This document shows positions 348 through 14,844 of a stretch of DNA of 64,000 nt, piece after piece. A program made the translations under genes and the position numbers. Where the stretch lies: assembly GCF_055900595.2 (NCBI RefSeq), contig NZ_CM148325.1; one strand, written 5' to 3'. Position 1 is the first letter of the stretch, and every line of letters starts with the position of its first letter. A model generated the notes under the pieces. The model saw only the letters and a list, made by a program, of their open reading frames with translations, was not told where the DNA came from and did not search any database.

Positions 348-683
348 TTAACCGTGCGCAGCCTTCATCAGTGTATCGTTAATCCACTGGTTAACGCTTT
401 TACCGGAGACTTCTGCCGCAACGTTAATGGCAGAGTGAATTTCAGGTGGAATACGCAGGCTGATTTTTCCGCTGGCCGGACGCAACGGCTCCCGGCCCCG
501 TTCCTCGCAGTAAGCCAGATAGTCGTCTACCGCCTCTTCAAACGCTTTACGCAGATCGGCAACATTATCGGCATGAAAGCCAATGACATCCCGAATGCCT
601 GCAACGTGACCAACAATGCATTGATCTTCATCGCTGTATTCAATTTTTGCGGCATAGCCTCTATATGTCATGGTATTCATCAT
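348..683 (-). CDS. hicB: HicB-family antitoxin (RNase H-like fold plus C-terminal RHH)
   Basis: 111 aa. C-terminal ribbon-helix-helix-like segment ISLRIPPEIHSAINVAAEVSGKSVNQWINDTLMKA. 4-nt ATGA overlap with the upstream hicA. Confidence 0.75.
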   Translation of the reverse strand: MMNTMTYRGYAAKIEYSDEDQCIVGHVAGIRDVIGFHADNVADLRKAFEEAVDDYLAYCEERGREPLRPASGKISLRIPPEIHSAINVAAEVSGKSVNQWINDTLMKAAHG

Positions 684-943
684 GGTGTTACCCCTACAGC
701 TTCAAGGAATGTTCTGGCATCGCGAACCTGATAGGCTTTCGCTTCTTTTTCCGGGTGTGGACGATGAAATGAAGCCACAACCTGATTAATTTCAAACCTG
801 ACGCGGGAACCGTTTCCTTCCGTAGCAATAGCCCCCAAAGCAATAAATAAGGCTTCTATTTTTCGCCATTCCAGCGTGACAGGTGTTGGCGTAGAAAAAA
901 CAGCTTGTAAGGTTTTTTTATGTTTGGCGCTTAACGTATTCAT
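680..943 (-). CDS. hicA: HicA-family mRNA interferase toxin
   Basis: 87 aa. Pattern GNGSRVRF...HRPHPEKE...VR..RTFLEAVGV fits the HicA signature (GSH-x-F, HxP, KE, lysine/arginine-rich C-terminus). Immediately upstream of hicB. Confidence 0.7.
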   Translation of the reverse strand: MNTLSAKHKKTLQAVFSTPTPVTLEWRKIEALFIALGAIATEGNGSRVRFEINQVVASFHRPHPEKEAKAYQVRDARTFLEAVGVTP

Positions 944-2465: not shown

Positions 2466-3052
2466 GCTGCCGCCTTACTGAATTTTTCGAAGGCGACCGC
2501 CAGCTTAGTATCGTACTGGTTGCGTTTGTACTGTGGCCCGTTGTAGCGGCGGGCGAACTCTGGCCAGTTCTGTACCTTCATCGCGTCGTGGATCTTCGAA
2601 TTGGCCTCAACAAAGCGCACGAAGGTATCAAGCTGCATCTGCTCGCTGTCGTTCATCTGTTTTTCAAAGTCGGCAGCAGAGGTGTAGCCCAGCGTTTTCC
2701 AGTGAAAGCCCATAATCTGGAACAGTCCCCAGCTTGCGCTCTCAATGGCGGCGGCGCTGTGGATCTGTTTCGCCAGATTCAGACGGTAGTGCTCACGGCT
2801 TCCGCCCTGATAGCCGCCTGCGCTCTTGTTCACCAGATCCGGGTAATTCTGCGCCAGCCGGTCGGCGTCCAGTCCGTGGCTTTTTAACTGGCGGTACATG
2901 ACGTGGCGTTCAAACAGAATAGCTGGGCGGCCATCGGGCAAGAAGCCGTGAGATCGGGCTTCAACCTCCTGCACTGCCTGTAATGTCGCCAGCGGGATGC
3001 CCAGATACAGCGCGGCGGCCTGCTGCTGATCATGAGTGAGTGTACGAGTCAT
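2462..3052 (-). CDS. Endolysin, N-acetylmuramidase family (DUF3380-type)
   Basis: 196 aa containing the GLFQIMGFHW motif typical of this muramidase family. Lies in the lysis cassette. Confidence 0.7.
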   Translation of the reverse strand: MTRTLTHDQQQAAALYLGIPLATLQAVQEVEARSHGFLPDGRPAILFERHVMYRQLKSHGLDADRLAQNYPDLVNKSAGGYQGGSREHYRLNLAKQIHSAAAIESASWGLFQIMGFHWKTLGYTSAADFEKQMNDSEQMQLDTFVRFVEANSKIHDAMKVQNWPEFARRYNGPQYKRNQYDTKLAVAFEKFSKAAA

Positions 3053-3344
3053 GGCGTGGCTCCTTCGGGTGGTGACGTAAGGGTTTAATCAGGCTGGCGA
3101 CGTTGCCGCGTGCGGCAGTCAGGCAAATCAGCAGCACGATGTTGATGGCGGTTTCGGCGATAAACACGTAGCGGTACAGGCTGAAACAAATCAGTACCGC
3201 CACTGATGCGGTGCAGCACATCAGCAGCCACGCCAGCCAGCTATACAGCGGGCGATAGGTAGTACCGTGAACGCGGCGATAGAGGAACAGACGGATGGTA
3301 ATCAGCAGGCAAATAATGGCGTTAAGGCTCAGGATTAGTTTCAT
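3030..3344 (-). CDS. Small membrane protein of the lysis cassette (holin/antiholin-like)
   Basis: 104 aa, strongly hydrophobic with about 3 predicted TM segments. ATGA overlap with the upstream holin-like gene. Confidence 0.5.
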   Translation of the reverse strand: MKLILSLNAIICLLITIRLFLYRRVHGTTYRPLYSWLAWLLMCCTASVAVLICFSLYRYVFIAETAINIVLLICLTAARGNVASLIKPLRHHPKEPRHDSYTHS

Positions 3345-3718
3345 TTGCGTCCCCTTAAAAAGTCGAGCAGTTGACCGGGGTTATCCAGTTGTCGGATGGC
3401 CCATAGCAGCGCCTTGACGGTAAGCGCCGATGAGAGCAGCGCCCCGATACCGGGGGAGACTTTTTCCGTCAGATGTTGCGGCAGATATCCGGCGACCAGT
3501 GCAGTGAACAGGTCGGCGGTCAGCAGGCCGATCACAAACGCCACGCAGAAGAAAATGATGCGCAGGAACAGGCCGATCTCTTTTTGCGAAATCACCAGCA
3601 GCAGCGCGCCACACAATGCGCCGAGCACCACCGGAGCCTGTAGCGTCGGGAACAGCGTGGCAATGGAGAATGCGCTTACGGAAGCGGCGACGACGGTGCC
3701 GGTTACGGGTTCGTTCAT
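3341..3718 (-). CDS. Holin-like membrane protein
   Basis: About 125 aa taking the ATG at 3718 (MNEPVTG...); the track's longer form needs a GTG start. Multiple TM helices. Located directly after X. Confidence 0.55.
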   Translation of the reverse strand: MNEPVTGTVVAASVSAFSIATLFPTLQAPVVLGALCGALLLVISQKEIGLFLRIIFFCVAFVIGLLTADLFTALVAGYLPQHLTEKVSPGIGALLSSALTVKALLWAIRQLDNPGQLLDFLRGRK

Positions 3719-3720
3719 AG

Positions 3721-3924
3721 TCAGTCCCACAGGTTGATTCGTTGACGTTCGGCGGCGGGAGCCTGTTCAGGTACGTTCACCGCCGTACCGTGCGGCAGGC
3801 GCAGCGGCAGTTCGCATAGGCGCGGGTTGTCGCGGTAAAGCCGTTCGACAATCCCGGCAGTGCGCCCGAAGGTGCGCCAGCAGAGCTGGTCGAGCGTTTC
3901 GTTTTGCAGGCTATAGACAATCAT
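3721..3924 (-). CDS. Tail protein X (gpX-like)
   Basis: 67 aa, the same length as P2 gpX. Sequence MIVYSLQNETLDQLCWRTFGRT.... Confidence 0.7.
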   Translation of the reverse strand: MIVYSLQNETLDQLCWRTFGRTAGIVERLYRDNPRLCELPLRLPHGTAVNVPEQAPAAERQRINLWD

Positions 3925-4038
3925 GGTGTTTCCCGCGCGGCGTCAGGTGATGCGGGGATGGTGGCACAGGGGCGGGAAGTGAAGGGAAGGCTTCCGCTTG
4001 TAACTGAGGACAGTACAAGCGGAAGCGATTGGCGAGGG

Positions 4039-4359
4039 CTATGCCTCGTCGCTGTCGGTATTGATGATTTTCAGTTCAGCGGACTTCTGGAGCTGGATCA
4101 GCGCCGGGATCAGAAGCGCGGTAGCCGACAGGCCGTGCCCTAACTGGCACAGGCTTTCAGCGGAGAATTCCAGCACGTTGCTGTCGGCAAAGGAGACGAA
4201 GGTTTTACCCAGAAAATGCAGGCCGTGACATAGCCCGGCATAGCACTCTTCGCTGCTGTTGGCCAGTTGCAGAGTATCGTCGGCGTTCAGGTGTGAAATA
4301 TCCAGCTTGCGGATCGCGTCCGCCAGTTCAGAGGACAGAATATTGGTTTCAGGCACCAT
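4039..4359 (-). CDS. Hypothetical protein, 106 aa, acidic C-terminus
   Basis: Strong SD (GGAGGT, 5-nt spacer) before the ATG at 4359. No family recognised by eye. Last of three small genes in the L-X island. Confidence 0.55.
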   Translation of the reverse strand: MVPETNILSSELADAIRKLDISHLNADDTLQLANSSEECYAGLCHGLHFLGKTFVSFADSNVLEFSAESLCQLGHGLSATALLIPALIQLQKSAELKIINTDSDEA

Positions 4360-4525
4360 GGCGCACCTCCAGCGGTTTGCAGGAGACGAACACCAGCGGG
4401 AAACCCGCCAGCAGGCCGCGAGCCTCTGTCTCTGTTGTCGCCAGTACGGATACCAGACGCAGTGGCTGGATCTCGCGCAGCAGGCGGTTGGAACGGGCGT
4501 TCAGGAAGGTGTAGAGCTTAGGCAT
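4352..4525 (-). CDS. Hypothetical small protein, 57 aa (not in ORF track because <60 aa)
   Basis: Hand translation: MPKLYTFLNARSNRLLREIQPLRLVSVLATTETEARGLLAGFPLVFVSCKPLEVRHGA. SD GGAGGT 4 nt before the ATG at 4525. Overlaps both neighbours by 8 nt. Confidence 0.5.
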
Positions 4526-4694
4526 GGTTCACCTCCTCTACCGGGGTGCTACGTGGGGGATTGAACGACTGAGCGATAACGCTCAGTGCCTGCTTACCTT
4601 CGGGATGCGCAAGACGGTAGTAAGTTAACAGGACTTGCTCCTGTGGGCTGAGATCGTCCCACGTGAGAGTTGTGTTACTATTAGCGGTAGCCAT
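4518..4694 (-). CDS. Hypothetical small protein, 58 aa
   Basis: ATG at 4694 preceded by GAGGT (MATANSNTTLTWDDLSPQEQVLLTYYRLAHPEGK...). The track's longer form starts at 4757 without a good SD. Confidence 0.5.
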   Translation of the reverse strand: MATANSNTTLTWDDLSPQEQVLLTYYRLAHPEGKQALSVIAQSFNPPRSTPVEEVNHA

Positions 4695-4836
4695 AGCATT
4701 ACCTCGATTAATGTTGTGGTTAGATGCCTTGGCAGTGTTCGCGCACTGTCGGGGCATTGTTATTTATGTCATGTGATAGTAATGTGTCATCACACAGTAC
4801 TACATTAACCTGAGTGTGATTTAGGTGTCAATACAC
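4695..4836. promoter_or_regulatory. AT-rich divergent promoter/operator region between the two island operons
   Basis: Inverted repeat TGTGAT...ATCACA (tgtcatgtgatagtaatgtgtcatcacacag) and further GTGTGA copies between the start codons at 4694 (-) and 4837 (+). Confidence 0.45.
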
Positions 4837-5004
4837 ATGAATGAAAGAAGAGGAAATCCTCCGTTTCAGTTTCGACTCGATCCTGAACTGAGAAACGCGA
4901 TGGAAGAAGCTAAAAAGCAAGATGGTGATGAATCACTGGCTGCGTGGATTAAGCGAATTATCAGAAAAGAGCTTCAGTCACGGGGTATAGAACCAAAAGA
5001 TTAG
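4837..5004 (+). CDS. Arc/MetJ-type ribbon-helix-helix DNA-binding protein, 55 aa
   Basis: Hand translation: MNERRGNPPFQFRLDPELRNAMEEAKKQDGDESLAAWIKRIIRKELQSRGIEPKD, matching the RHH pattern F-x-L-R-L-x-x-E-L...SLN/A.I..RL. First gene of the + operon. Confidence 0.55.
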   Translation: MNERRGNPPFQFRLDPELRNAMEEAKKQDGDESLAAWIKRIIRKELQSRGIEPKD

Positions 5005-5050
5005 CAGATAGGTATATACTTTGAATAAAGAGTATTAGAGGTAAAAAATA

Positions 5051-5239
5051 ATGGCGAAGAATAGCAGTCCTGCCAGCCGATACGGTATCAAGGTCGTAAA
5101 AAGAGACAGTATGAGCGGGCAGTTTGTACCCGTCGAAATGAAGCTGGACGGCCCGGAAGGTGAGCGTGTGATTAAAAAGTCGGCAGAGCGTATTTATGCC
5201 AGACACAACAAAGTCATTAAGGCGCTGGCTAACCGATGA
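5051..5239 (+). CDS. Putative antitoxin partner of the Doc toxin (family not recognised; not Phd/YefM-like)
   Basis: 62 aa. SD AGAGGT upstream. Stop overlaps the Doc start (ATGA at 5236-5239), a typical toxin-antitoxin coupling. Confidence 0.5.
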   Translation: MAKNSSPASRYGIKVVKRDSMSGQFVPVEMKLDGPEGERVIKKSAERIYARHNKVIKALANR

Positions 5240-5613
5240 TTGATGCACATTTGGTGATTGGAATTCACGACTTTATTCTTGCTCATGAGCCGGGATTGGT
5301 TGGTTATCAGGATGCTGGCCGGGTCGAGGCAACACTGGCACGGGTGGATAACCGTATTCTGTATGAGCAGATGAATGATATTTTCCAGATCGCCGCATCT
5401 TATGCGGTTGCCATCGCCAGAGGGCACGTTTTTGCTGATGCCAACAAGCGAACGGCACTGGTGACGGCGTTGACATACCTTGATATGCAGGGTGTGAACC
5501 TCAAGCGAACACAAAAGCTGGAAGATATTATGGTGGATGTGGCTGAGGGAACGCTAAATCTGGATGATTTAGCCGATATTTTCTATACCCTTAGTGATGT
5601 AAATGCTTCCTGA
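5236..5613 (+). CDS. doc: Doc (death-on-curing) family toxin, Fic fold
   Basis: 125 aa. Conserved Doc motif HVFADANKRTA (HxFx[DN][AG]NKR). Size and layout parallel P1 Doc. Confidence 0.8.
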   Translation: MIDAHLVIGIHDFILAHEPGLVGYQDAGRVEATLARVDNRILYEQMNDIFQIAASYAVAIARGHVFADANKRTALVTALTYLDMQGVNLKRTQKLEDIMVDVAEGTLNLDDLADIFYTLSDVNAS

Positions 5614-5618
5614 CGTTA

Positions 5619-5643
5619 CAGCCCGACAGATCGGGCTGTTTTT
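5619..5643. terminator. Bidirectional hairpin terminator between the convergent Doc gene and the 78-aa gene
   Basis: cagcccga-caga-tcgggctg followed by TTTTT on + strand; A-run on the other side. Confidence 0.6.
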
Positions 5644-5645
5644 AA

Positions 5646-5882
5646 TTATGCCGCCTCAATACCCGCGTTGGTTAACATATAGTGGCCCCAGTGGTTTTTT
5701 TTCAGGTAACCGGCCAGTTCCATCTGCGTCACAATAAATTCAGCGTTAACCATTTCTATACCTGCGTAGTCGGCCAGATCGCGCAGCGGCCATGTGCTGC
5801 GAACGCCGACGCTAACTATGGTGTCTCTGATGCGGCGAGCGGTATCGGTCATTGGGCGGGTTCTGGCTGCCTGAATAGTCAT
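5646..5882 (-). CDS. Hypothetical protein, 78 aa, possible winged-helix DNA-binding protein
   Basis: ATG at 5882 with SD AGGGGA. Sequence ...LRDLADYAGIEMVNAEFIVTQMELAGYLKK... Lies directly after L on the late strand. Confidence 0.45.
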   Translation of the reverse strand: MTIQAARTRPMTDTARRIRDTIVSVGVRSTWPLRDLADYAGIEMVNAEFIVTQMELAGYLKKNHWGHYMLTNAGIEAA

Positions 5883-5998
5883 GGTATTTTCCCCTGTAGA
5901 TTCTTTCTGTTAGGTCAGACACTAACTCTGGTGGGGAAGGGGCATCCAGCGTTCAGATGAGGCGATACGGTGATGCGCATCGCATATCCGTACTCTTT

Positions 5999-6466
5999 TT
6001 ATACCAGAACAAACGTACTGCGCGGCTTGCCCAGAATATCCCGCACGGCGAAGCGGGCATCGCGCGCCAGATCGTCGGCGGTGCTTTCCTTCTGTTCCGC
6101 CAGTTTGCTGCCGTGGGCGGTGGCATCAAAGTTACGGTAGCGTTCCAGCAGGTTTGCGTGCGTCAGGCTGTACACCGCGTAGCGGTAGCGGTGCAGGTTA
6201 ACGCTTTCGCCGTCCAGCCGTTCGGTAGTAGTTTCCACAATGCCGGTTGTGCCACGGCTTTCCTGCTCCAGCCGCCATTCCCGCAGGTCGTCGTTCACGC
6301 TGGCCAGCGCAATCAGCAGCGCCTCGCGCAGCCGTTCGTTGGTGATGGTGCTGTCCAGCCGTTGGGTTGCACGCAGATGTTGCGTATCGATATTGGGAAA
6401 GAAAGGGTGGTTGCTGATAACCAGCCCCGGCAGACTGGCGGCGGGGGCAACCTGAATAAAGCTCAT
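5999..6466 (-). CDS. Head completion/stabilisation protein (gpL-like)
   Basis: 155 aa from the ATG at 6466 (MSFIQVAPAASLPG...) with SD GGAGA. Position after small terminase M. The track's longer form begins at an upstream alternative start. Confidence 0.7.
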   Translation of the reverse strand: MSFIQVAPAASLPGLVISNHPFFPNIDTQHLRATQRLDSTITNERLREALLIALASVNDDLREWRLEQESRGTTGIVETTTERLDGESVNLHRYRYAVYSLTHANLLERYRNFDATAHGSKLAEQKESTADDLARDARFAVRDILGKPRSTFVLV

Positions 6467-6551
6467 TATATTCTCCCTGTTCGGCGGTGGACGGCGGGCG
6501 TTGCAGTGGTAAAACCACGCGCGGCCAGCCGTGCCGCCGGTCGTGAGGGTC

Positions 6552-7205
6552 TCACTCGGTAGGCTGACTGTTGCGAATTTGTCGCTCCAGTTGCTCAATC
6601 AGCTTTTTCACGCCGACGTTCTCATCCAGTTGTAGCGCGCGCTGGAACTGCGCCAGCGCCTCCTGCGGCTGGCTTTCGCTGTGTGCCAGCCCCAATGCCT
6701 TGTGCAGGCGAGCGCGAACCTGATCCGGCATGTCCTGATCGGCTAACAGCCCGGCAAAGGCCAGCAGGCTGTCCAGCGCCGCAAAGGTACCGGCGGTAAG
6801 CTGTTTCAGGGTGGTGTCGGCGACCTCTTCAGCCACCATGCAGGCGGTCTGCCGCTGGTACTGATCCGGCGTTACCCAGCCGTGTTTCAGGGCGTGTTCC
6901 GCCATGGGGTAGGCAGCGGGAAAGTCGCCGGTATCCAGCGTCCAGAGCAGCACCGTCATAAACACATCGTCCTGCTGTTGGCTGTCGGCAGCCAGAACGC
7001 CGCTTACCCATGGCTGGTAATCGGGCAGCAGTTCACCCTTAACCTCGATTTTGCGTTCAATGGACTGGATCGCTTTCAGGCGGCGTTTATCGGTTGCCAG
7101 CTTTGCCAGCATCAGTTCATAGCCGCTGGCGTAGGTCTGATTTTCCTGTTGATTTGCGGCCTGCGCCTGATAGCGCAGCAGGTGGCGGCGGGCAGGCGTC
7201 ATCAT
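6552..7205 (-). CDS. Terminase small/endonuclease subunit (gpM-like)
   Basis: 217 aa, in the P2 late-operon position between N and L. Confidence 0.65.
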   Translation of the reverse strand: MMTPARRHLLRYQAQAANQQENQTYASGYELMLAKLATDKRRLKAIQSIERKIEVKGELLPDYQPWVSGVLAADSQQQDDVFMTVLLWTLDTGDFPAAYPMAEHALKHGWVTPDQYQRQTACMVAEEVADTTLKQLTAGTFAALDSLLAFAGLLADQDMPDQVRARLHKALGLAHSESQPQEALAQFQRALQLDENVGVKKLIEQLERQIRNSQPTE

Positions 7206-8221
7206 GCGTCTTTATCCTCAAACTTGATGTTTTCAAACAGGCAACCGCAGCCGAAGTCTTCCACCACAAAGGCATCGTTGGAAGACTCGAAGTTCTCTAC
7301 CCGGTCACGTTTGGGGTTATCAATAATGGCGCGGCGGCGGGTGCCTTTCTGGACATAGATAGACAGGTTACTGAAGGCGGTGACCAGAATGGTGTTGTGC
7401 GGGAAACCCGGCACGCGCACGGCAGGGCGACTGCCGATGGTTTTCTGGCTGACCAGAATCTGCCCCGCCAGTTTTTCGCTGTTCTCATTGTGCTGGTTGA
7501 GGATCGGGAAGTATTTGTCGTGCAGGACGCCACGGCCACAAATGGCGACCAGATCTGCGCCGTCGACATGCCATTCGTCAATCAGGTTTTCTTCGCCGTC
7601 ATTGACCATGGCGTCCAGATTCTCATAGTCGCCGCCTTTGCCAATGATGATTTTGCCGGAACCTTCCACACCTTCGTTCATGACGCGTTCCGGGGCGTGA
7701 TCGCGATACTGCTGCAGCCAGCCTTTGTTAACGTCCTGCAGAAGGGGGTAACGCTGGAAGTCGGTCTGGGCTGCAACGAGGATACCGTTGAAGCCAATCA
7801 GGATGCGGTCTAATCCCTGTCGCCGGGTGATGCTGTCGCGCACGCGGATCTGAAAATCTGGGTGGGCGGCCCATGCGTCCAGTTTGGCGTATTTCAGCGC
7901 GGTATCGTAGTTGGTTTTTTCGCAGCGGTAGCGGTTAGTCGTCATTGACGTGGGGTCGACGGGTTCACGTTCACGCTGACTGGTATCGGTACGACTGGCC
8001 GTGGGGCGATCAATGCCGATACCGACTTTTTCACCTTCCTGATCCACCACTTCATGGACGTTGATTTCGGTCAGGAATTCTACGGACGCCTGAATTTTGG
8101 TTTCCAGCGTCTGCTGTACGGAAGGTTCTACCGTGAATTCGACGGCGGCGCTCTGGACACCGGACAGCCCGGCGACGGTTTCAACGTAAGCGTTGTATTT
8201 TAAGCGGGTTTCGTTACGCAT
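7202..8221 (-). CDS. Major capsid protein (gpN-like, P2 family)
   Basis: 339 aa, close to P2 gpN in size, in the position after scaffold O. Confidence 0.75.
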   Translation of the reverse strand: MRNETRLKYNAYVETVAGLSGVQSAAVEFTVEPSVQQTLETKIQASVEFLTEINVHEVVDQEGEKVGIGIDRPTASRTDTSQREREPVDPTSMTTNRYRCEKTNYDTALKYAKLDAWAAHPDFQIRVRDSITRRQGLDRILIGFNGILVAAQTDFQRYPLLQDVNKGWLQQYRDHAPERVMNEGVEGSGKIIIGKGGDYENLDAMVNDGEENLIDEWHVDGADLVAICGRGVLHDKYFPILNQHNENSEKLAGQILVSQKTIGSRPAVRVPGFPHNTILVTAFSNLSIYVQKGTRRRAIIDNPKRDRVENFESSNDAFVVEDFGCGCLFENIKFEDKDA

Positions 8222-8231
8222 CGGGGGTTCC

Positions 8232-9059
8232 TTAACAGTCGGTTTTCAGGTCGGTGTTGCCACCGGTGGCAGGCTGGCGCGGCGGTGTGGCCGGTTGTTT
8301 TGCAAGCTGAGTTTTCAGCGTGGAATAATCGGTCTGTAGCTGCTGATGCTGCGTTTGCAGCTCAGACAGCTCAGCGCGAATTTGGTCGACCTGTTCGCTA
8401 CAGAACGTCGCTACTTCCTCCACCGCCAGATGCACGTCGTCCCGTTGCTGGTCGTCGTGGTTCTGCTTTTTACTTAACAGCGCCTTGATGCGGGTAAACA
8501 GAGATTCGCCGCTGCTTTCCTCCACTTCTTCAAACTCCAGTTCAATCTCTTCTGCCACGCTGAAAATGTTCTCCGGCGAGCGTTTACGCGCCGCCAGCGG
8601 GTTGCTTTGCGCGCTGGCGCAGAAGGAGAGCATTTCGGTGCCGAGGCTGGCCGGATCGTCGGTGACCGCCAGCCCGACCAGATAGGCTTTGCCCGTGTCG
8701 GCAAATTTCGGATTGACTTCCACCGAGGTATAAACCTTCTGCCCTTTGCGGTTCATTTCGACCAGCGAATCCGTTGGGGCCAGACGCGCCAGCAGCGCCA
8801 GTTTGCCTTTCAGGGGACCGTCTTCGGCGATCTCTTCTTTCTTCACCATCGCCACGTCGCCGTAGCGCTGGAACGGGCCGTCCGGCAGGATGCCTTTCAG
8901 GTGCTCCAGATTAATGCGCGCGCCGTACACTTTTGGGCTGTATGTATCGGCCATTTGCTCGATCCACTGGCGTTCAATCGTGCGCTTGTCGCAGGTTGCG
9001 CCTTCTACGGCGATACGCACCCATTTAGAGAGCAGTTTTTTCTTTGGCTTTTTGTCCAT
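8232..9059 (-). CDS. Capsid scaffolding protein (gpO-like)
   Basis: 275 aa with an acidic/coiled-coil C-terminal half. First gene of the O-N-M-L operon, divergent from the terminase. Confidence 0.75.
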   Translation of the reverse strand: MDKKPKKKLLSKWVRIAVEGATCDKRTIERQWIEQMADTYSPKVYGARINLEHLKGILPDGPFQRYGDVAMVKKEEIAEDGPLKGKLALLARLAPTDSLVEMNRKGQKVYTSVEVNPKFADTGKAYLVGLAVTDDPASLGTEMLSFCASAQSNPLAARKRSPENIFSVAEEIELEFEEVEESSGESLFTRIKALLSKKQNHDDQQRDDVHLAVEEVATFCSEQVDQIRAELSELQTQHQQLQTDYSTLKTQLAKQPATPPRQPATGGNTDLKTDC

Positions 9060-11976: not shown

Positions 11977-12021
11977 CCCCACCAACGACCAGCTCACTAT
12001 CAGAGCCACCATGCGCCATTC

Positions 12022-12046
12022 AGCCCGCTTCCTGCGGGCTTTTTTA
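12022..12046 (+). terminator. Rho-independent terminator after the portal gene
   Basis: agcccgc-ttcct-gcgggct followed by TTTTTT. Confidence 0.65.
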
Positions 12047-12295
12047 CGCCTTCTCACCGCCAGAATCCCCGGTCAGCACCGCCAGCGCGCGGTTGTGACC
12101 CCGCCACGCCTGCGCAGTAAATAGATCGCTTTTTTTGCACTGGTGCGTAAGCGTCGGAGCGGGCCATAACGGGAGGGCGTGGTCGGGTTGCAGTTGCAGC
12201 AGAATCATGCGGATTTATACGCCCTGTGTATGCGCCAGAGACGATCGGGAGGGCAATGCCACGATCCTTTCGGTATTTTTGGATCGCCTGTCGGG

Positions 12296-12581
12296 AAAAG
12301 GTAACCTCAGTAATTAGCAGTAAAAATAATGCTTATTCTATTGTTTATAAAAGAGAAATTTGGTTACCCCTAAAAGGTAATCTGAGGTAACCCAAAAGGT
12401 AACCTGTTTTATATTTTCATATAAATCATGATGTTACAAATTAGAAGACATCACTATTATAAAAGGTAACCTGATTACGCTTTGGTTACCAAAAGATTAC
12501 CTTTCTCTGTTTTTGAAAAATCCTTTTTATTCATTAAGTTATTTTGATTTTTCGTTGCAGGTTACTAAGGTTACCTTTTTC
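12296..12581. repeat. Array of about 9-10 copies of (A)AAAGGTAAYC in both orientations; candidate protein-binding sites
   Basis: Direct copies near 12296, 12372, 12385, 12394, 12461; inverted copies near 12362, 12484, 12497, 12560, 12570. AT-rich; no ORF of 60 aa or more. Confidence 0.6.
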
Positions 12582-12850
12582 CGAAGTCCCCACGGACTTT
12601 GGTATATATAGATAGGTTAAAAAGTAGCCGTTATGTTTGCCAGCTATTTACTTCCCATTCTTCCACTGGCCAGCATGTTAATATGCCCGGTAATGATAAC
12701 TAGTTGCCATTGGGTTACTTTCTTCTGTGGACGGTAAAACTGACGGTAAATTGGGTTGTGGGTCTCGATTTAGATTAGTAAAATCAAGTGATTAAGTCGA
12801 CTGTAGATAATCGAGTGGGAATGATTTGATCCCTGCACTATGAATTAGCA

Positions 12851-12880
12851 AAACCCTCTGTTACTACAGAGGGTTTTTTA
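12851..12880 (-). terminator. Hairpin terminator downstream of yfgI (bidirectional shape)
   Basis: aaaccctctg-ttacta-cagagggttt flanked by T/A runs. Confidence 0.6.
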
Positions 12881-12917
12881 TACTCACGAATCATAGGATT
12901 GAAGTTACTGACATCGC

Positions 12918-13457
12918 TTAGTTAAACCAGCTGTCCGATTTGTTTTCTTCTGCTTTGCCCACGCTTTTCATCAGATCGCGACCGCCTTCAGTCATATTCC
13001 TGTTTGCGTCAGCTTCAGATTGCACCACATCGGTTTGCGCAGCTTTGTGCTTCAGTTCCTGATCGATAAATTCGTTTTCTCGCTTAACGCGGGCTTCTTC
13101 TTTCGCCAGCGCCAGTTTTTGTTTCTGAATCTCTAAGCTGCGTAGCTCATCTTCATAACTTTGATCGCGTTTCTTGTCCGCAGTGGCTTCGGCGTCCAGT
13201 TTATCCTGACGAGCTTTCTTATTCGCCGCTGCCGTTGCCGCTCTTTTATTAGCCGCGGCCTGGGCGTTTGCGCGACGTTGCTTCTCTTGCTGGATTTCCC
13301 TGTTGCGCTCCGCGACCCATTCGTCATGCTGCCTTTGCTCTTCGTTTTTACCTTGCTGTTCCGCTTCTGCGACAGCAGAGAGTTGATCCTGCAATGATGA
13401 GGCGATAGCCGGATAGCTTAAGGAGGCTAAGATGGCGCAAAGAAAAACTTTCTTCAT
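12918..13457 (-). CDS. yfgI: YfgI, secreted protein of unknown function
   Basis: 179 aa with signal peptide (MKKVFLCAILASLSYPAIA); K/E/A-rich. Recognised as E. coli yfgI by sequence and neighbourhood. Confidence 0.85.
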   Translation of the reverse strand: MKKVFLCAILASLSYPAIASSLQDQLSAVAEAEQQGKNEEQRQHDEWVAERNREIQQEKQRRANAQAAANKRAATAAANKKARQDKLDAEATADKKRDQSYEDELRSLEIQKQKLALAKEEARVKRENEFIDQELKHKAAQTDVVQSEADANRNMTEGGRDLMKSVGKAEENKSDSWFN

Positions 13458-13472
13458 GACTCCTCCTGATTA

Positions 13473-13991
13473 TTAGCTCTTTTCAGGACATTTGGTATTT
13501 GGCTGAATACGCGTTTCGTTATACGTCGTGGTAATAACAACGGCTAAACCTGTCGTAAACTGGCACTCTTTACCCACCTGGGTGGAGGTATACACTTTGG
13601 TGCCTTCCTTATACGTTAGAGAAACACCTTCCACTAAGGTTTTATCATTCACCATAGAACCTGCTGCCGCGCCAACAGCTCCGCCGCCAACTGCACCTGC
13701 CGTCGTTCCGGAATTGCTGCCAGACCCCACGTTGTGGCCGATAACACCGCCAGCGACTGCACCAATAAGCGCGCCGAAGGCTTGTGCGTTTCGTTTATTT
13801 TGGGAGTTGTCTACGGCAACTTTTGCGGGAAGAATGGAAATAATATTAACGGTTTTAGTTTCTTGTTTGGTATTCAGTTGATCGGTTTGATAAACATCGG
13901 CGGCATGATCATCAGCATTTGACTGGCATCCTGCCAGAGTGAATGACGCTAACATTGCCACAGGCAGAAGACATTTTTTAAATTTCATCAC
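13473..13991 (-). CDS. yfgH: YfgH, outer-membrane lipoprotein (glycine-zipper)
   Basis: 172 aa with lipobox LAGC; GxxxG-rich segment. Confidence 0.85.
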   Translation of the reverse strand: MMKFKKCLLPVAMLASFTLAGCQSNADDHAADVYQTDQLNTKQETKTVNIISILPAKVAVDNSQNKRNAQAFGALIGAVAGGVIGHNVGSGSNSGTTAGAVGGGAVGAAAGSMVNDKTLVEGVSLTYKEGTKVYTSTQVGKECQFTTGLAVVITTTYNETRIQPNTKCPEKS

Positions 13992-14301
13992 TATTCCTTG
14001 TTATACACATTACGAAAAATAAGACATTTAAGATCATCAAAAGAGGAAAGTAAATGTATTGCGTATAAAGGAATAGATTAAATTTATTAAAATTCATGTG
14101 GAAAATAATTTATAAAAATACATCATTAAAACATATGTATTAATTTTATATTTATTTCGCAGCCAAACAGGATAAACATCAGTCAGGACAAAGACGTAAA
14201 ATTTAAGATGAAAGAATATCTGCCGCTTTGATAATCTCAAAGAGCAACTGCATCCGACAGCGAGGTGCCGTTATGTTCAGTGAAGGTGGAGAAGGTAACC
14301 G

Positions 14302-14493
14302 CTAACGTTGTACCGGTGATTCGACGGAGAGTGTGGATTGTTGAGCTTCTTTTTTGCTCTGATGGTGCTGCCAGGCACCGACGGACGAGTAGATAAAGCG
14401 GCCAAAGAAGAAGATAAAGCTGATGAGCAGTACGATACGGGTCATGCGACTGTTAAATCGGTGTCGTTTTCGCATACTGGTTGCCTGACTCAC
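14302..14493 (-). CDS. yfgG: YfgG, small membrane protein
   Basis: 63 aa, one TM helix; position between yfgH and pdeF. Confidence 0.75.
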   Translation of the reverse strand: MSQATSMRKRHRFNSRMTRIVLLISFIFFFGRFIYSSVGAWQHHQSKKEAQQSTLSVESPVQR

Positions 14494-14844
14494 AAAAGGT
14501 TCCTTGAAGTATGTCCCACATCGTGGACGGTACTTACATTAAGGCACACCAGGACAAAATGGTCAATTCTTCATTATGTAAAAAAGCGTCAGTGGATACA
14601 TATTTTAATGTTATGGAAGTTAATTTAATTATTTACAGTGATGATGTAATAATGATGAATTAACATGATAAACGTAATAATTCATTAATCAGGGTTATTT
14701 TGTTTGATATATATCAATTGGAACTTTCATATGACACTTAGAATCAATGCTCTCTATAGTGATGAATAATCATCATTCGAAGTCAGGTGGGATGCCTGTC
14801 TGAATACACCTCCTTCAGGATGTGGGGGATTCTGCTGAGCATCT

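What the first reader, a model, noticed from the sequence alone, without database searches (positions are those of the whole stretch)
4039..4694. Three tightly coupled small genes of unknown function (58, 57 and 106 aa) with strong ribosome-binding sites
Each gene has a GGAGGT/GAGGT Shine-Dalgarno at correct spacing, and neighbours overlap by 8 nt, which argues for real, co-translated genes. The middle one is under 60 aa and is missing from the ORF track. None matches a family I recognise. They are transcribed divergently from the Doc operon and read into tail gene X.
Basis: seen in the sequence. Interest (0 to 1): 0.65.

Follow-up and report, generated by a model that had tools for sequence, protein, structure and literature searches.

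The report
Antisense-RNA-silenced small-gene cassette in a prophage
The three small genes are real and form the payload of a mobile cassette in a P2-like E. coli prophage; the sequence indicates it is kept silent by its own repressor gene and by a small antisense RNA related to the E. coli antitoxin RNA SymR, but what the proteins do is still unknown.

Summary
The three minus-strand ORFs exist as described: g1 4518-4694 (58 aa), g2 4349-4525 (58 aa), g3 4039-4359 (106 aa). Each has a GAGG-type ribosome-binding site. The overlaps are 8 and 11 nt. dN/dS is 0.05-0.17, so all three are real genes.

They are not tail or lysis accessories. They are the cargo of a portable cassette with these parts:
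- a divergent RHH (Arc/YlcI-YnfO-like) gene, whose type co-varies with the palindromic operator;
- a predicted sigma-70 promoter;
- a predicted ~78-nt cis-antisense RNA on the + strand (4689-~4766).

The RNA's invariant extended -10 (TGnTACTAT) lies in codons 5-8 of g1. The RNA covers the Shine-Dalgarno and AUG and ends in a covarying terminator. It is the top Rfam hit to SymR (29 bits, below the gathering score). A covariance model built from 19 copies finds authentic K-12 SymR (E 7e-7).

- g2 is a marginal Icd-like protein.
- g3 is an acidic three-helix protein of an uncharacterised Enterobacterales family and is the constant cargo.
- g1 is a rare insertion.

The same leader heads the primase operons of P4-like and PICI-like satellites. 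The cassette has its own 3' hairpin and sits at three different places in P2-like phages. The biochemical function was not tested.

The parts
4518..4694 (-). g1, a 58-aa ORF. Its first 8 codons are the conserved leader (MATANSNT). The remaining 50 codons, plus the SD and ATG of g2, are a ~141-nt insertion relative to the common two-gene form.
   Evidence: ORF, SD. (alignment with E. coli L725 and GMF054, which lack the insert). (only 2 homologous clusters). (dN/dS 0.08-0.17). No Pfam, NCBIfam, PHROG or PADLOC hit.
4349..4525 (-). g2, a 58-aa divergent Icd-like protein. It overlaps g1 by 8 nt.
   Evidence: NF033153 scores 24.8 bits (cutoff 25) and phrog_20855 gives 5e-35. Relatives at 88-89% identity are named Icd-like by NCBI. 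P1 Icd scores 52.6 bits and the first ORF of the GPEC1186 satellite-like element (L069) scores 71.7 on the same model. dN/dS is 0.09-0.13. The AF2 model has low confidence (pLDDT 65).
4039..4359 (-). g3, a 106-aa acidic three-helix protein (phrog_19484). It is the constant terminal cargo of the prophage and island cassettes (the satellite forms lack it) and overlaps g2 by 11 nt.
   Evidence: family restricted to Enterobacterales; 37 representatives among 1.84 billion proteins. (AF2 pLDDT 85.8; helices 4-17, 26-59, 67-105). (15 D/E against 5 K/R; maximum KD19 1.53). (no Pfam or PDB relative; only generic helical-hairpin fold matches).
4689..4766 (+). Predicted ~78-nt cis-antisense sRNA, SymR-like. 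Its 5' hairpin (4689-4721) presents the anti-SD CCUC in a 7-nt loop. A terminator hairpin (4723-4758) and a T-rich tail follow.
   Evidence: Rfam SymR is the top hit over the full model: 29.1 bits, E 0.012. The same holds in L019 (29.8 bits) and L069 (20 bits). Terminator scan. Folding gives -38.5 kcal/mol, z -6.6, against z -1.0 for the sense 5' UTR. In 19 sequences 98% of pairs form, 5 pairs covary and 0 of 500 shuffles do as well. On the sense strand only 81.5% would pair; there are 72 G-U cells against 6 A-C cells. Model R1 finds K-12 SymR at 32.6 bits, E 7e-7, and 63 copies in 60 loci.
4673..4681 (+). Extended -10 promoter of the antisense RNA (TGtTACTAT), inside codons 5-8 of g1. It lies 7 nt upstream of the predicted start A4689, which is 3 nt inside the CDS.
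   Evidence: T, G and TAC-AT are invariant columns in 19 distinct sequences, while the codons between the -10 and +1 vary. The geometry matches annotated symR/symE of K-12 and the -10 mutation CATTCT->CACTCC of Kawano 2007 (PMC1891008). The simple promoter scan did not call it, because it has no -35.
4802..4831 (-). Candidate sigma-70 promoter of the sense operon: -35 TTGACA at 4831-4826, an 18-nt spacer, and -10 TAATGT at 4807-4802.
   Evidence: TTGACA is conserved in position in the window, L001 and L002; the relatives have TATATT as -10. The strict consensus scan did not call it. This part is inferred.
4780..4799 (.). Palindromic operator TACTGTGT-GATG-ACACATTA, just downstream of the -10. 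It is a perfect palindrome in L003. A second related half-site, TATCACATGACA, follows.
   Evidence: The operator sequence changes together with the N-terminal (DNA-reading) part of the divergent RHH protein across six groups of loci. No LexA box was found.
4837..5004 (+). Divergent RHH regulator gene (Arc-like / YlcI-YnfO-like), the presumed repressor of the cassette. It is the first gene of the strand that carries the variable type II TA cargo.
   Evidence: phrog_228 Arc-like repressor 3e-06; NF041551 YlcI/YnfO at 22 bits, below the cutoff of 30. It lies divergent and 245-300 nt from the leader ATG in nearly all g3 loci. PGAP calls the equivalent gene in E. coli PICI-like elements a YlcI/YnfO family protein.
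3990..4026 (-). 3' hairpin of the cassette: a 13-bp stem GCTTCCGCTTGTA / TACAAGCGGAAGC with no U-run. It lies between g3 and tail gene X.
   Evidence: -26.2 kcal/mol, z -8.6. A hairpin follows g3 in every context examined. It is a canonical terminator with a T-run in Pectobacterium, Erwinia and Kosakonia. In Yersinia phages, where X is not the neighbour, the stem is homologous and also lacks a U-run.
5051..5639 (+). Variable cargo downstream of the RHH gene: a phd-like gene (5051-5239), doc (5236-5613) and a terminator (5618-5639).
   Evidence: TIGR01550 DOC_P1 at 88.5 bits. Terminator. In relatives the same slot holds RelE/ParE+HTH, PIN+Phd, MazEF, Gp49-like+HTH (HigBA-like, by sequence inspection) or DinJ-YafQ.

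Best explanation
The three genes are the translated payload of a portable cassette that is silenced at two levels.

Shown by sequence and comparison:
(1) A divergent RHH gene, whose type changes together with the palindromic operator next to the sense promoter.
(2) A SymR-like cis-antisense RNA gene of about 78 nt. Its extended -10 promoter sits in codons 5-8 of the first ORF. Its 5' hairpin presents the anti-Shine-Dalgarno sequence in the loop, and it ends in a covarying intrinsic terminator.
(3) A string of overlapping ORFs behind this leader: g1 (a rare insert), g2 (Icd-like) and g3 (the constant cargo in prophages and islands).
(4) A 3' hairpin that belongs to the cassette.

Inferred mechanism:
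- The RHH protein represses the sense promoter.
- The constitutive antisense RNA pairs with the 5' UTR, SD and AUG of any sense transcript, including late-operon read-through from gene L, and blocks initiation at g1.
- g2 and g3 start inside the preceding ORF (overlaps ATGCCTAA and ATGGTGCCTGA). The g3 SD is paired in the predicted fold. Both are therefore made only when the upstream ORF is translated.
- The whole operon fires only when sense transcription outruns the antisense RNA.

The unit works like symE/symR, a type I toxin-antitoxin-like arrangement, placed inside a switch that resembles phage immI regions.

Inferred, not shown: the proteins are growth-arresting or otherwise harmful effectors. 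g2 would be an Icd-type division inhibitor and g3 an unknown acidic helical effector, which is why synthesis is held off so tightly.
For: Real genes: dN/dS 0.05-0.17; SDs and overlaps.

Antisense RNA:
- Rfam SymR is the top, full-length hit in the same register in three divergent loci.
- The reciprocal model R1 finds annotated K-12 SymR at E 7e-7, as the only other hit at E below 0.01 in 84 kb.
- The layout matches symE/symR: start 3 nt inside the CDS and -10 in codons 5-7 (PMC1891008).
- The extended -10 is invariant while the flanking codons vary.
- Structure: 98% of pairs form, 5 pairs covary, 0 of 500 shuffles do as well.
- Strand asymmetry: 98% against 81.5% paired; 72 G-U cells against 6 A-C cells; fold z -6.6 against -1.0.
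- A T-rich tail follows the terminator in 18 of 19 sequences.
- 63 copies were found, all antisense to a first ORF.

Cassette autonomy:
- The RHH gene is divergent in nearly all g3 loci, and operator and RHH co-vary.
- The cassette has its own 3' hairpin in every context.
- It occupies three different slots in P2-like phages and also sits in islands.

g3 as core cargo:
- Many distant family members start with the leader peptide MAxxN/DSxT fused directly to the g3 domain.

Harmful-effector inference:
- P1 Icd is annotated as a division inhibitor required for ant expression (PMC8201110).
- An Icd-like protein in a prophage gene cluster that includes a DNA primase is the likely cell-death effector in ECOR61 (bioRxiv 10.1101/2023.04.06.535777).
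- The cassette always sits beside type II TA cargo.
Against: - No expression data: the RNA, its promoter and the sense promoter are predictions. The simple sigma-70 scan called neither promoter.
- The SymR scores (20-30 bits) are far below Rfam's gathering score of 61.
- g3 is acidic, soluble-looking and helical. It resembles neither the usual small hydrophobic type I toxins nor SymE (AbrB fold).
There are no PADLOC hits.
- g2 misses the Icd-like cutoff by 0.2 bits and has no BLASTP similarity to P1 Icd.
- Translational coupling is inferred from the overlaps and from one modest predicted hairpin (z -1.5).
- Tight antisense control is also used for non-toxic regulators such as P22 Ant, so the control architecture does not prove toxicity.
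Confidence: 0.6

Rival explanations
1. This is an immI-like anti-immunity module. As in P1 (c4 RNA - icd - ant) and P22 (mnt/arc - sar RNA - ant), the cassette would be a repressor- and antisense-controlled switch. Its terminal gene g3 would be a small antirepressor or other regulator-binding protein, analogous to P4 epsilon. It would act on the repressor of this or a co-resident phage or satellite, and would not be a toxin.
For: - The parts list matches: an RHH repressor gene, an antisense RNA over the RBS, and an Icd-family ORF overlapping the next gene.
- P22's immI is also a moron inside the late operon (PMC2629481).
- The same RHH and leader unit heads the primase and replication operons of P4-like and PICI-like satellites. 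There it occupies the position of an immunity switch.
- The related L725 prophage has no annotated antirepressor gene.
- g3 is small, acidic and helical, which is compatible with a protein- or DNA-mimic binder.
Against: - g3 shows no sequence or fold similarity to Ant or to any named family or solved structure searched.
- The cassette travels between accessory hotspots together with TA cargo, and is not linked to the immunity region.
- g3 also occurs in integrase-adjacent islands where no phage repressor is evident within the flanks examined.
Confidence: 0.22
2. The genes are constitutively expressed moron or anti-defence genes, and the 'antisense RNA' is not a gene. Conservation of the leader would reflect sense-strand needs such as the 5' UTR, the ribosome-binding site and an N-terminal peptide. 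g3 would then be an acidic inhibitor, for example of a host defence.
For: - g3 is very acidic (net about -10) and helical, like several anti-restriction or DNA-mimic proteins (general knowledge).
- A strong TTGACA -35 is present.
- There is no experimental evidence for the RNA.
Against: - The structure is selected on the antisense strand: 98% against 81.5% paired, 72 G-U against 6 A-C cells, and a T-tail on that strand only.
- The fold z-score is -6.6 against -1.0.
- The reciprocal match to genuine SymR.
- The -10 hexamer constrains third-codon positions.
- An operator and a partner RHH gene argue against constitutive expression.
Confidence: 0.1
3. The genes are ordinary late genes: small head-completion, tail or lysis accessory proteins co-transcribed with X, Y and K in the P2 late operon.
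For: - Position between L and X, in the same orientation as the late genes.
- The hairpin after g3 lacks a U-run, so read-through into X is possible.
Against: - In Yersinia P2-like phages L and X abut, and the cassette sits after G or between V and W.
- The cassette also occurs next to integrases or tRNA genes in Pectobacterium-type islands.
- The same leader (without g3) heads operons in satellites.
- g2 and g3 have no tblastn hit in 50,697 deposited phage genomes.
- The cassette has its own regulator, promoter and 3' hairpin.
Confidence: 0.04

Closest known systems
symE / SymR of E. coli (Rfam RF01809; Kawano, Aravind & Storz 2007, PMC1891008)
   Same: - A ~77-nt cis-antisense RNA that starts 3 nt inside the CDS.
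- Its -10 lies in codons 5-7 of the target.
- The anti-SD sits in the loop of the 5' hairpin.
- The linker GUG(A/G)UUAG and the apical terminator sequence GUGUU..GCAC are shared.
- The leader peptide is similar: MTDTHS in SymE against MADTNS or MATANS here.
- The target is a ~110-aa protein under a second, transcriptional repressor.
- The match is reciprocal and statistically supported.
   Different: - Scores are below Rfam's gathering threshold.
- The regulated proteins are unrelated to SymE, which has an AbrB fold. Here they are a helical acidic protein, an Icd-like ORF and g1.
- Transcriptional control is by an RHH partner rather than LexA.
- The target is an operon of coupled ORFs rather than one gene.
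- The location is on phages, satellites and islands rather than the hsd/mcr region.
Phage P1 immI operon (c4 RNA - icd - ant1/2)
   Same: - An RNA blocks translation of a small Icd-family ORF.
- That ORF overlaps the downstream gene and is needed for its expression (annotation of AF234172; PMC8201110).
- P1 Icd and the satellite leader ORFs belong to the same NCBIfam model on which g2 scores marginally.
   Different: - C4 is encoded upstream on the same strand and acts through short target sites. Here the RNA is a true cis-antisense transcript.
- There is no Rfam C4 hit.
- The downstream gene is not Ant.
- g2 has no direct BLASTP similarity to P1 Icd.
Phage P22 immI 'ant moron' (mnt, arc, sar RNA, ant)
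   Same: - RHH repressor(s), a small antisense RNA over the RBS of the regulated gene, and a divergent promoter pair.
- The whole unit is inserted as a moron in a late operon (PMC2629481).
   Different: - No homology between g3 and Ant.
- sar lies between arc and ant rather than in the first codons.
- This comparison rests on the literature and was not tested by sequence here.
Early (primase or helicase) operons of P4-like satellites and Gram-negative PICI-like elements (IAI39, NRG857c and GPEC1186 elements; IMG/VR contigs L040, L044, L050-L052)
   Same: - The same leader and antisense element in all of them.
- In the annotated E. coli elements: a YlcI/YnfO-family RHH gene divergent from the leader and a first ORF of the Icd-like family.
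   Different: - There the leader drives DUF4222 or phrog_35285 proteins and a primase or helicase, so it controls replication.
- Here it drives g1, g2 and g3, and no replication gene.
- No RHH gene was detected next to the leader in the IMG/VR satellite contigs.
- g3 is unrelated to the satellite proteins by hhalign.

Membership tests
SymR antisense RNA (Rfam RF01809) | Score at or above the curated gathering threshold (61 bits) | tested here: not met
   29.1 bits in the window, 29.8 in L019 and 20.0 in L069. In each case it is the top family over the full model length and in the same register.
SymR antisense RNA (Rfam RF01809) | Cis-antisense to the 5' end of its target: start 3 nt inside the CDS, promoter -10 within the first codons, covering SD and AUG, ending in a terminator hairpin | tested here: met
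   The geometry is identical to annotated K-12 symR/symE. -10 at 4676-4681, +1 at 4689, ATG at 4694-4692. Terminator at 4723-4758. Model R1 finds K-12 SymR at 32.6 bits, E 7e-7. These are sequence-level predictions only.
SymR antisense RNA (Rfam RF01809) | Target gene encodes SymE (AbrB-fold, SymE_toxin family) under LexA control | tested here: not met
   No Pfam, NCBIfam or PHROG relation of g1, g2 or g3 to SymE. g3 is all-helical. No CTGT-N8-ACAG box was seen in the promoter regions examined by eye; an operator matched to the RHH type is present instead.
Type I toxin-antitoxin system | The protein is toxic when its synthesis escapes the antisense RNA | not testable with these tools
   This needs expression assays. 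[quoted passage not shown]
Type I toxin-antitoxin system | Small hydrophobic membrane-active toxin (the usual, not universal, form) | tested here: not met
   Maximum Kyte-Doolittle 19-residue means: g1 0.15, g2 1.11, g3 1.53. g3 has net charge of about -10.
Icd-like cell-division inhibitor (NCBIfam NF033153) | Score at or above the curated cutoff (25 bits) | tested here: inconclusive
   g2 scores 24.8 bits and its 68-aa form 24.1. P1 Icd scores 52.6 and the first ORF of the L069 satellite-like element, which has the same leader, scores 71.7. g2 against that ORF gives 44% identity over 27 aa, E 4e-4. Relatives at 88-89% identity are named Icd-like by NCBI. There is no BLASTP match to P1 Icd.
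Phage immI-type antirepressor module (P1 / P22) | Regulatory parts: repressor gene, antisense RNA over the RBS, and a leader ORF coupled to the effector | tested here: met
   RHH gene (phrog_228 Arc-like, 3e-06). Antisense RNA. Overlapping ORFs. This is an architectural resemblance only.
Phage immI-type antirepressor module (P1 / P22) | The effector is an antirepressor (Ant or KilAC family, or shown binding to a phage repressor) | tested here: not met
   g3 hits only phrog_19484 (unknown function) and no Pfam or PDB relative. Binding cannot be tested here.
P2 late-operon morphogenesis or lysis genes | Conserved position and presence among P2-like phages | tested here: not met
   L and X abut in Yersinia P2-like contigs, and the cassette lies elsewhere. 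It is absent from 50,697 deposited phage genomes. It is present in only 3 of 5,426 complete E. coli genomes.

The most novel reading that the evidence does not exclude
The SymR-type leader (5' UTR, SD, first 8 codons and the embedded antisense promoter) may be a portable, recombination-prone control module shared by four settings: chromosomal symE, the replication operons of P4-like and PICI-like satellites, integrase-adjacent islands, and P2-like prophage morons. On this reading:
- It would act as an RNA-based immunity or threshold device, and as a joint at which cargo and regulators are swapped. Supporting observations are the tandem RHH+leader duplicates that flank inserted TA genes, the RHH and operator swap upstream of nearly identical g2 and g3 in L063, and the insertion of g1 just after codon 8.
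- The g3 family would be a new class of antisense-controlled effector, giving a new type I TA-like family whose toxin is neither hydrophobic nor SymE-like.
- The antisense RNA would be the so far unrecognised immunity RNA of a group of enterobacterial satellites.
Probability: 0.3. Interest if true: 0.75.

Novelty: new variant of a known kind. Interest (0 to 1): 0.62.

Why it matters
If the predicted RNA is real, SymR is not a one-off partner of SymE. It would be the founding member of a wider family of cis-antisense control cassettes carried on enterobacterial phages, satellites and islands.

This would give a concrete, testable handle on three open points:
- how morons embedded in a late operon are kept silent against read-through transcription;
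- what controls the early (primase) operon of Gram-negative PICI-like and P4-like satellites, where the Icd-like first ORF has only been an annotation label;
- what an uncharacterised, Enterobacterales-restricted protein family (phrog_19484) does.

It also marks a cassette that always sits beside interchangeable type II TA cargo in P2-like prophages. That makes it useful for mapping accessory-gene hotspots.

None of the papers I could search describes this arrangement. That search covers open-access text only.

Tried and rejected
- Rfam C4 (the P1/P4-type immunity RNA) or any other Rfam family over 3000-7000: only the weak SymR hit appeared.
- The simple promoter scan found no site in 3600-6100. 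Both promoters here are therefore my reading of the sequence, not tool calls.
- g3 function by homology gave nothing:
  - Pfam, none even at E 10.
  - NCBIfam and PADLOC, none.
  - PDB profile search, none.
  - AFDB50 Foldseek returned only uncharacterised family members. One was labelled DUF3077, which a Pfam scan of 28 members did not confirm.
- g3 against the repeated phrog_35285 domain of the satellite 135-aa protein, and against the 132-aa PICI protein: no relation by hhalign. I had suspected a shared AGLC...LxC motif.
- The palindrome 3990-4026 as an Ogr/Delta-type late promoter for X (TGT-N12-ACA as I recall it). Rejected because the spacing is N13, and because the homologous hairpin follows g3 in Yersinia phages where X is not adjacent.
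- LexA box in the sense promoter: none was convincing, and the L003 version of the palindrome loses the CTG.
- The g2 structure came out at pLDDT 65, too low for a fold search.
- tmRNA or tRNA as the odd conserved region downstream of the Pectobacterium cassettes: not found.
- tblastn of g2 (68-aa form), g3 and an Icd-like satellite protein against deposited phages: no relevant hit.
- megablast of window 3700-6000 against deposited phages: no match.
Full report
**Context**

The window starts inside a P2-like prophage of E. coli. Host genes at 47-50 kb are 100% identical to E. coli tmcA/ypfJ.

On the minus strand the late genes run in this order:
- capsid scaffold O (8232-9059)
- capsid N (7202-8221)
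- small terminase M (6552-7205)
- head completion L (about 5999-6466)
- the region of interest
- tail protein X (3721-3924)
- two holins, endolysin, LysB/LysC, R, S, and HicAB (348-943)

**Observation**

- g1: 4518-4694, 58 aa
- g2: 4349-4525, 58 aa (not 57)
- g3: 4039-4359, 106 aa

Each has a GAGG or GGAGG box 4-6 nt before its ATG. The overlaps are 8 nt (g1/g2) and 11 nt (g2/g3).

All three are under purifying selection. dN/dS is 0.05-0.17 against two diverged relatives, with dS up to 1.2-1.6. They are therefore genes, not chance ORFs.

**What the proteins are**

- g2 is a marginal Icd-like protein.
  - It scores 24.8 bits on NF033153 against a cutoff of 25, and 5e-35 on phrog_20855.
  - On the same model P1 Icd scores 52.6, and the first ORF of an E. 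coli satellite-like element (L069) that carries the same leader scores 71.7.
  - g2 aligns to that ORF over 27 residues but not to P1 Icd.
  - Its AF2 model has low confidence.
- g3 belongs to phrog_19484.
  - I found 32 clusters in 5.8 billion proteins and 37 representatives in 1.84 billion. All named members are Enterobacterales and none is annotated.
  - AF2 gives a confident three-helix model with pLDDT 85.8.
  - The protein is acidic, with 15 D/E against 5 K/R.
  - Fold and profile searches return only family members or generic helical hairpins.
- g1 has two homologous clusters and no family.

**The number of small genes varies; the leader is constant and g3 is the usual cargo**

- E. coli L725 and GMF054, Yersinia, Photorhabdus and about 20 IMG/VR contigs have two genes: a 68-aa Icd-like ORF beginning MA(T/D/N)ANSN, then g3.
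- The window and L003 have three genes. L006 has four, at 62, 57, 81 and 106 aa.
- Relative to the two-gene form, the window carries a ~141-nt insert right after codon 8. The insert supplies the body of g1, a stop codon, and a new SD and ATG for g2.
- In Pectobacterium, Symbiopectobacterium, Serratia, Erwinia and Brenneria the leader peptide is fused directly to the g3 domain. Many distant family members also begin MAxx(N/D)(S/N)xT. The basic unit therefore appears to be leader plus g3.
- In P4-like and PICI-like satellites the same leader precedes a short ORF, Icd-like in the annotated E. coli elements, and then a primase or helicase operon.

**The leader hides an antisense RNA gene**

An Rfam scan of 3000-7000 gave a single hit: SymR on the + strand at 4689-4761, over the full model length, 29.1 bits, E 0.012, against a gathering score of 61.

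The site has a 16-pair terminator-like hairpin (4723-4758) followed by GTTATTTATG.

I aligned 19 distinct leader regions from the loci. The alignment shows:
- an invariant TGnTAC-AT (extended -10) 7 nt upstream of an invariant AGCCAT;
- variable bases between them;
- an invariant 11-bp 5' hairpin with the anti-SD in its 7-nt loop;
- a terminator hairpin in which 5 of 10 pairs change on both sides.

The pairing statistics support a structured RNA. 98% of cells pair, the covariation score is 0.278 against 0.109 in shuffles (0 of 500 as high), and slid controls give 31-52%.

The structure is selected on the antisense strand:
- 98% of pairs form there, against 81.5% on the sense strand.
- There are 72 G-U cells against 6 A-C cells.
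- A T-rich tail is present in 18 of 19 sequences.
- The RNA folds at -38.5 kcal/mol with z -6.6. The sense 5' UTR has z -1.0.

The relation to SymR is reciprocal. A covariance model built from these sequences finds the annotated SymR of E. coli K-12 at 32.6 bits, E 7e-7, as the only other hit at E below 0.01 in 84 kb. SymR is again the top Rfam family, in the same register, in L019 (29.8 bits) and L069 (20 bits).

The layout matches symE/symR exactly. The RNA starts 3 nt inside the CDS, and its -10 occupies codons 5-7, the very hexamer that Kawano et al. mutated (CATTCT->CACTCC; PMC1891008; sequence).

The model finds 63 copies in 60 loci, always antisense to a first ORF.

**The rest of the cassette**

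- An RHH gene lies divergent and 245-300 nt from the leader ATG in nearly all g3 loci.
  - It hits phrog_228 (Arc-like) at 3e-06 and YlcI/YnfO at 22 bits, below the cutoff.
  - PGAP names the equivalent gene in E. coli satellites a YlcI/YnfO family protein.
- The palindromes between the -10 and the antisense terminator differ among six groups of loci. They change together with the N-terminal, DNA-reading part of the RHH protein. This is the pattern expected of a cognate repressor and operator.
- L063 has g2 and g3 96-97% identical to the window's, but a different RHH and operator. The regulatory half and the cargo half therefore recombine, apparently within the conserved leader.
- A stable hairpin follows g3 in every context.
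  - It has a T-run in Pectobacterium, Erwinia and Kosakonia.
  - It lacks a U-run but has a homologous stem in the P2-like phages, including Yersinia phages where X is not the neighbour.
  - In the window it lies at 3990-4026 (z -8.6).

**Position of the cassette**

- In the E. coli/Salmonella lineage the cassette lies between L and X.
- In Yersinia contigs L and X abut, and the cassette lies after tail-fibre gene G (L035) or between V and W (L053).
- In Pectobacterium-type islands it lies next to an integrase or a tRNA gene.

Type II TA cargo lies beyond the RHH gene, on the RHH strand in most P2-like loci examined:
- phd-doc in the window
- MazEF in L006
- DinJ-YafQ in Yersinia
- a Gp49-like toxin with an HTH partner (HigBA-like, by sequence inspection) in Photorhabdus
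- PIN or RelE types elsewhere, some of these on the opposite strand

The cassette is rare:
- Only 3 of 5,426 complete E. coli genomes carry g2 and g3.
- 43 genomes carry a recognisable leader, mostly under genes annotated Icd-like.
- Four plasmid records carry g3.
- No deposited phage genome carries g2 or g3.

**Mechanism**

The parts listed above are shown by sequence and comparison. The following steps are inferred:
- The RHH protein represses the sense promoter (TTGACA at 4831-4826).
- The antisense RNA is fully complementary to positions -72 to +6 of any sense transcript. It blocks initiation at the first ORF.
- g2 and g3 initiate inside the preceding ORF, so they follow its translation. 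The g3 SD is paired in the predicted fold, though only at z -1.5.
- In this prophage the RNA would also neutralise late-operon transcripts that read through from L.

This is the logic of symE/symR and of the P1 and P22 immI regions.

What the proteins do is not established. I favour harmful, growth-arresting effectors, which makes this a type I TA-like unit, for three reasons:
- the Icd family link;
- the ECOR61 result, in which an Icd-like protein in a prophage gene cluster that includes a DNA primase is the likely cell-death effector;
- the constant company of TA cargo.

An immI-like antirepressor role for g3 is the main rival.

**Verdict**

The finding uncovers a SymR-related antisense control cassette with new cargo. 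It is a new variant of a known kind and needs transcript and phenotype data.

Noticed in passing
L040 2099-5096, L044, L050, L051, L052 (IMG/VR); L068 5134-6517 (E. coli IAI39); L069 3788-5333 (E. coli GPEC1186): The same leader and SymR-like antisense element heads the primase or helicase operons of P4-like and PICI-like satellites. In the two annotated E. coli elements a YlcI/YnfO-type RHH gene lies divergent from it; no RHH gene was detected in the IMG/VR contigs. The order is a short first ORF (annotated Icd-like in L068/L069), then DUF4222 or a 135-aa protein with two phrog_35285 repeats, then the primase or helicase. The RNA may be the immunity determinant of these satellites.
   Followed up: partly
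L023 2237-4297 (also L024, L028, L030, L054); L041 5892-8017: Tandem duplicates of RHH gene plus leader lie about 1.2 kb apart and flank inserted cargo. In Photorhabdus the first leader drives a truncated 42-aa Icd-like ORF followed by a Gp49-like toxin and an HTH antitoxin. In Yersinia L041 the first copy has a broken Icd-like ORF. This suggests cargo is captured by recombination at the leader.
   Followed up: partly
L063 7187-8327 versus window 3721-5004: g2 and g3 are 96-97% identical to the window's, but the RHH protein (57% identity) and the operator are of a different type. The regulatory half has been swapped, with the breakpoint in or near the conserved leader.
   Followed up: partly
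window 4837-5882, compared with L001, L002, L003 and L006: The stretch between the 78-aa gene next to L (5646-5882, phrog_331) and the RHH gene is a cargo hotspot. It holds phd-doc in the window, RelE/ParE+HTH plus a 177-aa ORF in L725, Phd+PIN+HTH_37 in L003, and MazEF in L006.
   Followed up: partly
window 348-943: A HicA/HicB pair sits between tail gene S and the baseplate genes. E. coli L725 has an 'abortive phage resistance protein' at the same spot and GMF054 has a hypothetical gene. This is a second accessory hotspot in this prophage lineage.
   Followed up: no
window 4695-4757 and the equivalent region in L006, L014, L020, L026, L027: The reading frame of g1 stays open upstream through the 5' UTR (...QCANT..ASNHNI..NAMA...), with ATGs at varying positions. 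This is probably a by-product of nucleotide conservation of the antisense RNA. It makes ORF finders over-extend the first gene (79 aa in the window).
   Followed up: no
L019 4324-5212 (also L017, L020-L022, L025, L026, L029, L031): A conserved G+C-rich stretch lies downstream of the cassette in Pectobacterium, Serratia, Erwinia and Brenneria. It has long ORFs on both strands (for example ...GGSRINFAAPASKKTRPRVGLFGG...) and no clear coding strand. No tRNA or tmRNA (L019, L017, L026) and no Rfam hit (L019) was found. Its nature is unknown.
   Followed up: partly
L067 8452-16030 (E. coli L725, the rest of the related prophage): The early region of this P2-like lineage is unusually small. It holds an integrase, a small HTH, DUF7673, an 885-aa toprim primase, an Ogr/Delta-like protein and a 111-aa HTH repressor. 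It carries a 'nucleoid-associated protein' plus a 'GTP pyrophosphokinase' as further cargo. No antirepressor gene is annotated.
   Followed up: no
window 12000-14800: Two minus-strand ORFs (12918-13457, 179 aa; 13473-13991, 172 aa) lie just beyond the portal and terminase genes, near the prophage end. I did not examine them.
   Followed up: no
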